Shown here one piece after another: positions 705 to 1,456 of a stretch of DNA of 64,000 nt (its first letter is position 1; each line of letters begins with the position of its first letter). This stretch comes from Escherichia phage vB_EcoM_Alf5. Location of the stretch: sequence record KX377933; one strand, given 5' to 3'. The translations under genes were made by a program, and so were the position numbers. The notes under the pieces are model-generated. The model saw only the letters and a list, made by a program, of their open reading frames with translations. It did not search any database and was not told the origin of the DNA.

Positions 705-797
705 CCAGTTTTGACAGAAGACCAATTACAGCAAACTTAATCTACTCATCTGACACGAAATCGGACAAAGAAGATATTTGGTCTGGTCATTAAGAAT

Positions 798-871
798 TGC
801 GGGTATAGAGAAAGGGCGTCTCACATGTCTCATTAGCATGGTATCGGCAGGTTCGACTCCTGCACCCGCCT
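798..871 (+). tRNA. tRNA with CAT anticodon (Met or Ile2 type), atypical
   Basis: Anticodon stem CATGT/GCATG, loop CTCATTA; T-arm GCAGG-TTCGACT-CCTGC; T1-C72 mismatch at top of acceptor stem and U at position 37. Confidence 0.5.
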
Positions 872-957
872 CCAAATTTACAGAAGACCGTTTACAGCAA
901 TATTTATTAAATTTTTAGCGGAAAAATTGAAAGATACGGTCTGGTAATACTAAACAT

Positions 958-1031
958 GGTTAGGAAGCACATAAGGTATGTGCGGTCGCCTGTTAAGCGA
1001 ATGGCACAGGGTTCGAATCCCTGACTAACCG
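958..1031 (+). tRNA. tRNA-Asn (anticodon GTT)
   Basis: Acceptor GGTTAGG/ACTAACC; D-arm GCAC-ATAAGGTAT-GTGC; anticodon loop CTGTTAA; T-loop TTCGAAT; CCA follows. Confidence 0.7.
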
Positions 1032-1102
1032 CCAAATTTAGGAGAGAAGCGATTGCTCACCGATTTGTAAGGTGCAAGTCCTTAGCCTGAATAGAAATTA
1101 AA

Positions 1103-1188
1103 TGTGTCGTTATCCCGTAGATGGTAGCGGTGGGGACTGTAAATCCCTTGTCATTGAGACTCGGTAGGTTCGACTCCTACACGGCACA
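1103..1188 (+). tRNA. tRNA-Tyr (anticodon GTA), long variable arm
   Basis: 86 nt; acceptor GTGTCGT/ACGGCAC; anticodon stem GGGGA/TCCCT, loop CTGTAAA; ~15-nt variable arm; T-loop TTCGACT. Confidence 0.7.
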
Positions 1189-1196
1189 CCAATAAA

Positions 1197-1271
1197 GGTT
1201 ATGTAGTTTAATTTGGTTAAAATACTCCCCTGTCACGGGAGATGATGAGGGTTCAAATCCCTTCGTAGCCG
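1197..1271 (+). tRNA. tRNA-Asp (anticodon GTC)
   Basis: Acceptor GGTTATG/CGTAGCC; anticodon stem CTCCC/GGGAG, loop CTGTCAC; T-loop TTCAAAT; CCA follows. Confidence 0.7.
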
Positions 1272-1456
1272 CCAATTTTGAGAGGACTATTTAGCCCCTC
1301 CCTTAAAGAGTTCTTACGAGTATTCTTTAAAGGAGCAGAAGACCAAATTCAGCAAGAACGTATGAAATTTCAAGCCAATTTAATTTTGAAAATTTAAACT
1401 TGGTCTGGCTCAACAAATTTACAGAAGACCGTTTACAGCAAAACTTAAACAATCTA

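What the first reader, a model, noticed from the sequence alone, without database searches (positions are those of the whole stretch)
708..1441. Recurrent inter-tRNA motif ACAGAAGACC-N-TTACAGCAA paired with downstream GGTCTGG
Four spacers contain (T)ACAGAAGACC(N3-4)T(T/C)ACAGCAA at ~711-737, 875-900, 1337-1360 and 1414-1441, usually just 3' of a tRNA CCA end, and a GGTCTGG(T/C) element recurs 40-60 nt downstream. TTGACA/TTTACA hexamers overlap the motif, so these may be promoters or shared processing signals rather than neutral spacer.
Basis: seen in the sequence. Interest (0 to 1): 0.45.

Follow-up and report, generated by a model that had tools for sequence, protein, structure and literature searches.

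The report
Phage Y-RNA-like genes between tRNAs
The repeated motif marks four small structured RNA genes tucked between phage tRNA genes; they resemble the "Y RNAs" that bind Ro60 proteins, sit next to a Ro60-shaped phage gene known to counter a bacterial defence, and belong to a widespread phage RNA family that I could not find described.

Summary
CAGAAGACC-N3-T-N-CAGCAA occurs exactly four times, all on the + strand within 715-1441, and each copy has a GGTCTGG downstream. The elements are better explained as RNA than as promoters. Each motif/GGTCTGG pair forms a bulged closing helix: a 4-bp lower helix, an AGA/G bulge and a 7-8-bp upper helix. This helix presents a conserved single-stranded box, U-N-C(A/C)GCAA. 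The helix encloses a hairpin in units 1-3. In unit 4 it encloses a tRNA-like domain (V arm, T arm, loop-closed acceptor stem, D arm), which is the topology of bacterial YrlA Y RNAs. The gene ending at window 380 (DUF2828/DUF7788) has a Ro60/TROVE fold. Its Bas63 orthologue, gp130, is a published counter of the Ppl defence. The same helix+box RNAs lie beside homologues of this gene, on the same strand, in 65 of 75 distant phage contigs, with heavy compensatory covariation. They match no Rfam family other than tRNA or tmRNA. They carry a CAGCAA box where YrlA has GNCGAA. Binding to the protein is inferred, not shown. Verdict: a new variant of the Ro60/Y-RNA kind.

The parts
3..380 (+). C-terminal 125 codons plus stop of the Ro60-fold (DUF2828/DUF7788) protein gene. 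The full-length protein is 471 aa in relatives.
   Evidence: Pfam DUF7788, E 2e-33. 98% identical to P0007. 122/126 positions identical to Bas63 gp130. An AF2 model of P0007 (pLDDT 88.9) gives Ro60/TROVE structures as all of its top 11 PDB hits.
399..519 (+). Two strong sigma-70-like promoters (399-427 and 490-519) upstream of tRNA-Pro. They are the likely start of the tRNA/Y-like RNA transcript.
   Evidence: 10/12 matches each. Their function is inferred.
712..789 (+). Unit 1, a short Y-like RNA. Lower helix TGAC 712-715 / GTCA 786-789. Bulge AGA 716-718 opposite G785. Upper helix AGACCAA 719-725 / TTGGTCT 778-784. Box CAGCAA 729-734. Inner hairpin TCTGA-CACGAAA-TCGGA.
   Evidence: The MFE fold reproduces the model. 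CM R1 scores 22.2 bits, E 0.008. The inner hairpin shows compensatory changes in Sf14 and SUSP2 (ATTTC/GAAAT, TTTTC/GAAAA). A syntenic unit is present in L086 and L087.
878..947 (+). Unit 2, a short Y-like RNA. Lower helix TTAC 878-881 / GTAA 944-947. Bulge AGA 882-884 opposite G943. Upper helix AGACCGT 885-891 / ACGGTCT 936-942. Box CAGCAA 895-900. A/U-rich inner hairpin.
   Evidence: (29.3 bits, E 3e-4). SUSP2 has the compensatory lower helix TTGC/GCAA.
1333..1411 (+). Unit 3, a short Y-like RNA. Lower helix GAGC 1333-1336 / GCTC 1408-1411. Bulge AGA 1337-1339 opposite G1407. Upper helix AGACCAA 1340-1346 / TTGGTCT 1400-1406. Box CAGCAA 1350-1355. Inner hairpin.
   Evidence: (22.2 bits, E 0.008).
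1419..1556 (+). Unit 4, a long YrlA-like RNA. Lower helix TTAC 1419-1422 / GTAA 1553-1556. Bulge AGA 1423-1425 opposite G1552. Upper helix AGACCGTT 1426-1433 / AACGGTCT 1544-1551. Box CAGCAA 1436-1441. Anticodon-like stem CTTA 1444-1447 / TAAG 1531-1534. V arm 1457-1473. T arm 1478-1494 (loop TTCGATT). Acceptor-like stem ACTCGGC-AGAT-GTCGAGT 1495-1512, closed by a tetraloop. D arm 1515-1529 (loop AATGGTA).
   Evidence: The MFE fold is a cloverleaf with a closed acceptor stem. CM R1 scores 94.3 bits. The acceptor stem covaries in Sf14 and SUSP2 (ACACGT-TACG-GCGTGT). Weak Rfam tRNA hit at 1445-1495 (22 bits).
1554..1702 (+). Adjacent structured element of unknown kind. A ~24-bp stem encloses three hairpins. 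One hairpin (about 1658-1684, CAGAC-CUUAAGCAA-GUCUG) carries an AGCAA box in its loop. It may be a fifth binding site.
   Evidence: MFE -48.3 kcal/mol, z -7.16, 0 of 200 shuffles as stable. Compensatory changes in both the long stem and the hairpin in Sf14 and SUSP2. No Rfam match.

Best explanation
The four motif...GGTCTGG units are genes for small Y-RNA-like non-coding RNAs, about 70-80 nt for units 1-3 and about 138 nt for unit 4. They are interleaved with tRNA genes immediately downstream of a phage gene for a Ro60-fold ring protein.

Shown: each RNA closes on itself through a bulged helix. The helix presents a conserved single-stranded box, U-N-C(A/C)GCAA, at its top. This helix+box 'handle' is the constant part of the family. 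The 'head' is variable: a simple hairpin in units 1-3, and in unit 4 a tRNA mimic with a loop-closed acceptor stem, the YrlA topology.

Inferred mechanism:
- The array is transcribed with the tRNAs from the promoters at 399 and 490.
- RNase P and tRNA 3'-end processing of the flanking tRNAs release the units.
- The handle is bound by the Ro60-like protein.
- The heads recruit or mimic different partners, by analogy with Ro60/Y RNA/PNPase complexes. The tRNA-like head would engage tRNA-binding factors.
- The resulting particles modulate the protein's role in RNA metabolism or counter-defence.
For: RNA structure
- In the window the motif occurs as 4 exact copies on one strand.
- MFE folds of all four units give the same bulged closing helix. 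Unit 4 gives a cloverleaf with a closed acceptor stem.
- The N3 inside the motif pairs with the bases 5' of GGTCT: GTT/AAC, GT/AC, AA/TT.
- In the lower helix 121 of 124 positions pair, with at least 7 compensatory variants.
- Across 13 seeds from distant phages, RNAalifold predicts the closing helix, T arm and acceptor stem on its own; 18 of 20 pairs have compensatory changes.
- On 30 covariance-model hits, 95.2% of cells are paired against 40-47% with slid partners, and 196 cells carry double changes against 22-42.

Link to the protein gene
- The protein gives Ro60/TROVE structures as its top 11 PDB hits: E 8e-8 to 4e-6, probability 1.00, about 510-555 aligned columns.
- All 30 covariance-model hits are on the gene's strand.
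- Helix+box units lie within 700 nt of the gene in 65 of 75 distant loci: 121 on the gene strand against 10 on the other. Far regions give 63 against 61.
- 27 of 33 loci without any tRNA nearby still carry a unit.
- Reverse test from the RNA pattern alone: 31 of 81 IMG/VR matches have the gene in the held stretch, all 31 on the same strand.
- Relatives at 52-62% protein identity keep the layout gene -> tRNA array with short and long units.

Literature
- YrlA RNAs have the same topology and lie next to Ro60 (PMC4201824).
- Thermus phage phiLo Ro60 binds adjacent Yrl RNAs (PMC12135203).
- Bas63 gp130 is Ro60-like and counters Ppl. The authors only guessed that some annotated tRNAs might be Y RNAs (10.1101/2024.10.10.617714).
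Against: - No direct evidence here that the RNAs accumulate or bind the protein.
- The protein is related to Ro60 only at fold level. Pfam assigns DUF2828/DUF7788, not TROVE, and PDB sequence and profile searches miss Ro60.
- The GNCGAA(N)G / CGAA motif thought to mediate Ro60 binding in YrlA and Yrl RNAs is absent.
- No Y-RNA family in Rfam matches, even at E<=10.
- In the preprint, gp130 alone restored T7 plaquing on Ppl hosts, from a plasmid or inserted in T7. That particular function therefore does not need these RNAs.
- MFE z-scores of single units are modest (-1.7 to -2.4).
Confidence: 0.75

Rival explanations
1. The motifs are promoters, sigma-70-like or phage-specific, that drive individual tRNAs or spacer transcripts.
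For: TTGACA and TTTACA overlap three copies. Copy 2 reaches the scan's minimum of 9/12, at 877-904.
Against: - The hexamer-like bases covary with a downstream partner, as an RNA helix would.
- Copy 3 has GAGCAG in that position.
- Three of the four copies fail even the lax scan, while strong promoters lie at 399, 490 and 1952.
- In distant phages the helix sequence changes freely while pairing is kept.
- The most conserved part is the 'spacer' box, not a -10 element.
Confidence: 0.03
2. They are only cis-acting processing or stability signals for the polycistronic tRNA precursor, such as RNase E/III/P guide structures, and have no life as separate RNAs.
For: Units 1 and 2 fill the spacers almost exactly, starting 3-4 nt after a CCA end and ending 8-10 nt before the next tRNA. 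All four lie inside a tRNA array.
Against: - The same units flank the Ro60-like gene in 27 of 33 loci with no tRNA within 4 kb.
- In some phages they form tandem arrays with no tRNA between them, as in L015, L031, L085 and L089.
- Unit 4 carries a complete tRNA mimic, which a cleavage signal would not need.
- Other tRNA spacers in this window lack the motif.
Confidence: 0.07
3. They are functional structured RNAs that act independently of the neighbouring protein. They could be tRNA-like decoys for host nucleases or modification enzymes, or sRNA regulators. Adjacency would then reflect co-regulation only.
For: The structure and covariation evidence does not identify the ligand. gp130 works against Ppl without them (preprint). 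The CGAA-type Ro60 motif is absent.
Against: - Tight same-strand adjacency persists across about 40% protein identity and very different genome contexts.
- The constant part is the handle while the heads vary. That is the design of Y RNAs, which Ro60 binds through the handle.
Confidence: 0.12
4. They are decaying tRNA pseudogenes or selfish inverted-repeat (MITE-like) elements spreading in spacers.
For: There are several copies with terminal inverted repeats. Unit 4 looks like a rearranged tRNA. ESCO50 has lost unit 3 and most of unit 4.
Against: - Copies sit at syntenic positions across genera.
- Substitutions are compensatory.
- Strand and orientation are strictly fixed relative to one gene.
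- A one-sided conserved box is not expected of terminal inverted repeats.
- I saw no target-site duplications, though I made no systematic search.
Confidence: 0.02

Closest known systems
Bacterial YrlA Y RNAs (Chen et al. 2014, RNA 20:1715; PMC4201824)
   Same: Encoded next to, and on the same strand as, a Ro60-type gene. The 5' and 3' ends pair in a closing stem with a short conserved motif just inside the 5' strand. The order V arm, T arm, loop-closed acceptor-like stem, D arm (unit 4) is identical. Shorter companion RNAs without a full tRNA domain exist (YrlB-like; units 1-3).
   Different: The box is U-N-C(A/C)GCAA, not GNCGAA(N)G. No Rfam or Infernal match. The partner protein is DUF2828/DUF7788 rather than a Pfam TROVE protein. 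There are four copies interleaved with genuine tRNA genes. Binding and tRNA-type modifications are untested.
Thermus phage phiLo Ro60 with Yrl1/Yrl2 (NAR 2025; PMC12135203; PDB 9KOP, 9L5Y)
   Same: A phage-encoded Ro60-fold protein with adjacent small stem-bulge-stem RNAs. phiLo Ro60 is among the top structural matches of the protein model.
   Different: phiLo Yrl RNAs were defined by a CGAA motif and are described as having one or two hairpins; the paper's text nowhere uses the term 'tRNA-like'. They lie upstream of the gene and are not in a tRNA array. The proteins share only 14-16% identity in the structural alignment.
Deinococcus radiodurans Yrn1 and metazoan Y RNAs
   Same: A bulged helix formed by the RNA ends serves as the protein handle, with a variable effector module. 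Some family members found here have T and D arms in the normal tRNA order with the handle in place of the acceptor stem (L057 3734-3833 and L063 3758-3847). This recalls Yrn1, in which the paper says the T/D-arm orientation relative to the 5' end is opposite to YrlA.
   Different: The conserved sequence differs: GGUCCGA on the 5' strand in animals, against an AG...CU helix plus a CAGCAA loop box here.
Bas63 gp130 (PhageMaP preprint, 10.1101/2024.10.10.617714)
   Different: The preprint only speculates that some annotated tRNA genes might be Y RNAs. The candidates found here lie in the unannotated spacers. In the Bas63 record, two small minus-strand hypothetical ORFs (bas63_0137 and bas63_0138) overlap unit 4 and the adjacent structured element.

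Membership tests
YrlA-type bacterial/phage Y RNA | Encoded within a few kb of, and on the same strand as, a Ro60 orthologue | tested here: met
   The units start 332 nt downstream of the stop of a Ro60-fold gene, on the same strand. The same holds in 65 of 75 distant loci. Caveat: the protein is Ro60-like by fold only.
YrlA-type bacterial/phage Y RNA | 5' and 3' ends pair in a closing stem | tested here: met
   All 8 pairs of the upper helix show compensatory changes and 92.5% of cells are paired. In the lower helix 121 of 124 positions pair.
YrlA-type bacterial/phage Y RNA | GNCGAA(N0-1)G motif near the 5' end | tested here: not met
   The equivalent position holds U-N-C(A/C)GCAA in all four units and in 30 of 30 aligned family members. 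No CGAA is present there.
YrlA-type bacterial/phage Y RNA | tRNA-like domain in the order (V), T arm, loop-closed acceptor-like stem, D arm | tested here: met
   Unit 4 has it, and the acceptor stem covaries. Units 1-3 lack it, as YrlB-type companions do.
YrlA-type bacterial/phage Y RNA | Match to a curated covariance model | tested here: not met
   Rfam 15 gives only a sub-threshold tRNA hit in unit 4 at E<=10. At gathering score it gives nothing but tRNA and tmRNA in 15 distant loci. That Rfam holds Y_RNA and YrlA models is from my memory; I did not verify it.
YrlA-type bacterial/phage Y RNA | Physical association with Ro60; tRNA-type modifications (Psi55, D); RNase P sensitivity | not testable with these tools
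   Needs RIP/CLIP, EMSA and modification mapping.
Ro60/TROVE protein (the partner gene) | HEAT-repeat ring plus a C-terminal vWA domain with a MIDAS motif | tested here: met
   The AF2 model (pLDDT 88.9, pTM 0.89) aligns over about 510-555 columns to 2I91, 1YVR, 2NVO, 9KOP and 9L5Y, with TM 0.45-0.66. In the D-V-S-G-S-M motif, D279, S281, S283 and M284 are invariant and V280 is nearly so.
Ro60/TROVE protein (the partner gene) | Sequence-level membership (Pfam TROVE, or HMMER hits to solved Ro60 structures) | tested here: not met
   Pfam gives DUF2828 plus DUF7788 only. phmmer and a 40-sequence profile find no Ro60 chain in the PDB. NCBIfam gives nothing.
Sigma-70 promoter | -35 and -10 hexamers at 16-18 nt spacing, conserved as hexamers | tested here: not met
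   One of four copies reaches the minimum score. The '-35' bases covary with an RNA partner.

The most novel reading that the evidence does not exclude
The DUF2828/DUF7788 proteins and their helix+CAGCAA RNAs are a large, unrecognised branch of the Ro60/Y-RNA world that is specific to phages. One RNA handle carries interchangeable heads: hairpins, and tRNA mimics of both topologies. Phages would then deploy a panel of RNPs as decoys, sensors or adaptors against host RNA- or tRNA-directed and nuclease-based defences such as Ppl. Some 'tRNA genes' annotated in phage genomes would in fact be heads of such RNAs.
Probability: 0.3. Interest if true: 0.8.

Novelty: new variant of a known kind. Interest (0 to 1): 0.62.

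Why it matters
Ro60/Y-RNA particles are known in animals and in some bacteria, mycobacteriophages and a few other phages. How widespread they are in phages, and what they do there, is open.

This finding gives concrete RNA partners, with a testable binding handle, for a Ro60-fold protein family present in thousands of phage contigs. One member of that family has already been shown genetically to defeat a bacterial defence system.

It also reassigns 'empty' inter-tRNA spacers, and some spurious small ORFs, in Felix O1-like therapeutic and typing phages to RNA genes. Finally, it shows tRNA mimicry built in two different topologies on one scaffold.

Tried and rejected
- I first read unit 4 as a circularly permuted tRNA gene needing end-joining. 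I dropped this once the YrlA topology, the conserved handle and the neighbouring Ro60-fold gene explained it without any ligation step.
- An alternative register has GGTCTGG as the 5' strand and the next ACAGAAGACC as the 3' strand, so that tRNAs would sit inside the helices. I rejected it because it leaves the first motif and the last GGTCTGG unpaired, and because in distant phages units stand alone with the box always on the 5' side.
- A pattern with a 4-nt internal spacer found nothing.
- Rfam at E<=10 gave no Y-RNA match.
- PDB sequence and profile searches with the protein found no Ro60. NCBIfam found nothing.
- A looser regex over the whole window gave only background outside the four units.
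- A literature search for DUF2828 gave only unrelated plant and tardigrade papers. The supplements of Chen et al. 2014, which list their 22 phages, are not held.
- I did not build a second covariance model or run the 1.84-billion-protein search.

Full report
**Context.** The window comes from a Felix O1-like myovirus (Ounavirinae, Felixounavirus). Positions 400-2300 match 312 phage records, at up to 98.9% identity; the top-listed hits include FSL SP-107 (98.9%) and, at 98.5-98.6%, VpaE1_ev78 and wV8. Positions 546-5797 hold a + strand array of 24 tRNA genes. The finding lies in its first kilobase.

**The observation.**
- CAGAAGACC-N3-T-N-CAGCAA matches exactly at 715, 881, 1336 and 1422, all on the + strand. 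Nothing else in 64 kb comes closer than 3 mismatches, and 0.69 matches are expected even at that tolerance.
- GGTCTGG follows each copy, at 780, 938, 1402 and 1547.
- The internal spacer is 3 nt; a 4-nt version finds none of the copies.
- The distance to GGTCTGG is 37-46 nt for three units and 105 nt for the fourth.
- The same elements are present in Sf14 (Mooglevirus), SUSP2 (Suspvirus), other Felixounaviruses and Bas63.

**Anatomy in the window.** Each motif and its GGTCTGG are the two strands of a bulged helix.
- The N3 inside the motif pairs with the bases just 5' of GGTCT: AGACCGTT/AACGGTCT in unit 4, AGACCGT/ACGGTCT in unit 2, and AGACCAA/TTGGTCT in units 1 and 3.
- Below this 7-8-bp upper helix lie an AGA bulge on the 5' side and a single G on the 3' side.
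- Next comes a 4-bp lower helix that differs between units in a compensatory way: TGAC/GTCA, TTAC/GTAA, GAGC/GCTC.
- Over 31 units from eight Ounavirinae-type genomes, 121 of 124 lower-helix positions pair, against 23-60 when the partner is slid. At least seven compensatory variants occur.
They are the lower helix plus the first bulge base.
- MFE folding of each unit on its own returns this architecture.
- CAGCAA stays single-stranded at the top of the helix.

**What the helix encloses.**
- Units 1-3 enclose one hairpin. The unit 1 hairpin (TCTGA-N7-TCGGA) becomes ATTTC/GAAAT in Sf14 and TTTTC/GAAAA in SUSP2.
- Unit 4 encloses a four-armed tRNA-like domain in a permuted order:
  - an anticodon-like stem (CTTA/TAAG);
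  - a V arm;
  - a T arm with loop TTCGATT;
  - a 7-bp acceptor-like stem closed by the tetraloop AGAT;
  - U-G, then a D arm with loop AATGGTA.
- The acceptor-like stem is ACTCGGC/GTCGAGT here and ACACGT/GCGTGT in Sf14 and SUSP2.
- Rfam sees only a sub-threshold tRNA fragment there (22 bits).

**The neighbouring gene.**
- Window 3-380 is the end of a 471-aa protein: Pfam DUF2828 plus DUF7788, and PHROG 850 'RNA-binding protein'.
- Sequence searches do not reach Ro60.
- An AlphaFold2 model built on 40 homologues has pLDDT 88.9 and pTM 0.89. Its top 11 PDB matches are all Ro60/TROVE: Xenopus Ro60, human Ro60 complexes, D. radiodurans Rsr and Thermus phage phiLo Ro60. These hits have E 8e-8 to 4e-6, probability 1.00 and full-length alignments. 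The next hits are isolated vWA domains.
- In the DVSGSM MIDAS-type motif, D279, S281, S283 and M284 are invariant and V280 is nearly so.

**Comparative evidence that RNA and protein form a module.** I fetched 75 IMG/VR loci encoding 38-45%-identical homologues.
- A strict scan for T arm, closed acceptor stem and D arm found the unit 4-type module on the gene strand in several of them, with GNRA- or UNCG-type tetraloops.
- In all 13 seeds, a 6-8-bp helix whose 5' strand ends 2-5 nt before a C(A/C)GCA(A/G/T) box closes the RNA. The helix sequence differs in almost every phage.
- RNAalifold predicts the closing helix, T arm and acceptor stem on its own, and 18 of 20 pairs have compensatory changes.
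- A covariance model built from these seeds finds 30 hits at E<0.01, all 30 on the gene strand, in 19 of the 75 distant loci plus the window, Sf14 and SUSP2.
- On that alignment 95.2% of cells are paired, against 40-47% for slid partners. 196 cells carry double changes, against 22-42.
- The family consensus is aG.aUc..U.CAGCAA..aaAa ... aAAaa..gAu.Cu.
- In the window, the same model run with filters off ranks units 4, 2, 3 and 1 as its four best hits: 94.3, 29.3, 22.2 and 22.2 bits.
- A simpler test needs only the box plus an exact 6-nt helix partner. It finds 121 units within 700 nt of the gene on its strand, in 65 of 75 loci, against 10 on the other strand. Far regions give 63 against 61.
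- 27 of 33 loci with no tRNA within 4 kb still have a unit. The link is therefore to the protein gene, not to tRNAs.
- In the reverse direction I scanned IMG/VR for AGG-N5-TACAGCAACTTT alone. Of 81 matches, 38 have the helix partner and 31 have the Ro60-like gene in the stretch held. All 31 are on the same strand, mostly 60-460 nt away.
- Relatives at 52-62% protein identity, including Yersinia phage P778, keep the layout gene -> tRNA array with short and long units. Some units sit at the same inter-tRNA positions as units 1 and 2.

**Interpretation.** The architecture is that of Y RNAs:
- a handle, formed by the RNA ends as a bulged helix with a short conserved motif at its top;
- a variable head.

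Unit 4 has the specific topology of bacterial YrlA RNAs: V, T, loop-closed acceptor-like stem, D (PMC4201824). Units 1-3 correspond to the shorter companions (YrlB, Yrn2). A phage precedent exists: phiLo Ro60 binds two adjacent Yrl RNAs and host PNPase (PMC12135203).

I therefore conclude that the motif marks four Y-RNA-like genes whose handle is the binding site of the adjacent Ro60-fold protein.
- Shown: the structure, its conservation, and the genomic linkage.
- Inferred: co-transcription from the promoters at 399 and 490, release by tRNA processing, binding to the protein, and any downstream function.

**Differences from the known families.**
- The box is U-N-C(A/C)GCAA, not GNCGAA(N)G or CGAA.
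- No Rfam model matches.
- The protein is outside Pfam TROVE.
- The RNAs occur as multi-copy arrays, here interleaved with tRNAs.
- The family also contains members whose head has the normal tRNA arm order, with the handle adjoining or replacing the acceptor stem. Examples are L057 3734-3833 and L063 3758-3847, which ARAGORN calls tRNA-Thr and tRNA-Asn(att).

I found no description of these RNAs in the held literature. That library is incomplete, and the phage list of Chen et al. 2014 could not be read. I rate the finding a new variant of a known kind.

**Rivals.**
- Promoters. The hexamer-like bases covary as RNA pairs, three of the four copies fail even a lax scan, and copy 3 has no -35.
- Pure tRNA-processing signals. 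The units occur without tRNAs, and in tandem arrays, elsewhere.
- Protein-independent RNAs. This cannot be excluded without binding data, and gp130 acts against Ppl without them. The constant handle and the strict adjacency argue for the protein as ligand.
- Pseudogenes or MITE-like repeats. Synteny, compensatory change and the fixed orientation argue against.

**Limits.**
- There are no expression or binding data.
- Covariance-model alignments lean towards the model's structure. The slid-partner control and the independent RNAalifold result mitigate this.
- Many IMG/VR loci are related to one another, so counts of loci are not independent events.
- E-values from the short calibration are rough.

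Noticed in passing
window 1554-1702 (+): A strongly structured element directly after unit 4. A stem of about 24 bp encloses three hairpins (MFE -48.3 kcal/mol, z -7.16). Sf14 and SUSP2 carry compensatory changes. One hairpin (about 1658-1684) has an AGCAA box in its loop. No Rfam match. In the Bas63 record, two small minus-strand hypothetical ORFs (bas63_0137 and bas63_0138) overlap unit 4 and this element.
   Followed up: partly
L057 3734-3833; L063 3758-3847: These family members have a head in the normal tRNA arm order (D arm, anticodon arm, T arm) inside the helix+CAGCAA handle. ARAGORN and Rfam call them tRNA-Thr(tgt) and tRNA-Asn(att). Some annotated phage 'tRNAs' may therefore be Y-like RNA heads.
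   Followed up: partly
window 2185-2263 and 2768-2842 (+): Two tRNA-like sequences that ARAGORN does not call. 2185-2263 scores 31.7 bits with the Rfam tRNA model and reads as Arg(TCT) with an odd D region and a long insert; Sf14 and Bas63 annotate a normal tRNA-Arg at the corresponding position. 2768-2842 has a CCA anticodon-like loop but only a 23-bit tRNA-Sec hit.
   Followed up: no
window 798-874 (+): The tRNA-Met(cat) lying between units 1 and 2 is called by ARAGORN. It does not reach the Rfam tRNA model; its only hit is 15.9 bits to tRNA-Sec. It appears to be an atypical tRNA.
   Followed up: no
window 2281-2628 (+): An HNH endonuclease ORF lies inside the tRNA array. It is present in some relatives (CECAV_041, garuso, nataliec) and absent from the corresponding interval in others (e.g. 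Bas63), so it is likely a mobile insertion.
   Followed up: no
window 1303-1330 and 4688-4711 (+): A recurrent hairpin containing GTTCTTACGAG (two exact copies) occurs in tRNA spacers. The copy at 4684-4714 folds with z -4.0. Its function is unknown.
   Followed up: partly
window 3100-3206, 3613-3707 and 1035-1103 (+): Other inter-tRNA spacers fold much better than shuffles (z -5.3, -3.0 and -2.6). None has the CAGCAA handle. The tRNA array may hold further small RNAs.
   Followed up: partly
window 1937-2184 (+): A non-coding stretch with the strongest sigma-70 match in the region (1952-1980, 11/12). It also has weak sub-threshold Rfam hits to permuted tmRNA (29 bits) and tmRNA.
   Followed up: no
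L004 (phage ESCO50), about 1996-2040: A natural deletion removes tRNA-Asp, unit 3 and most of unit 4. It keeps the last ~25 nt of unit 4 and the downstream element. tRNA-Glu is also truncated. The phage is presumably viable, since it is an isolated, deposited phage.
   Followed up: partly
L086-L088 5558-5946; L005 621-992: A small DUF5681 (PF18932) gene lies immediately upstream of the Ro60-like gene in L086-L088; Sf14 gp24 (L005 621-992) occupies the same position but was not checked against Pfam. It may be part of the same module.
   Followed up: no
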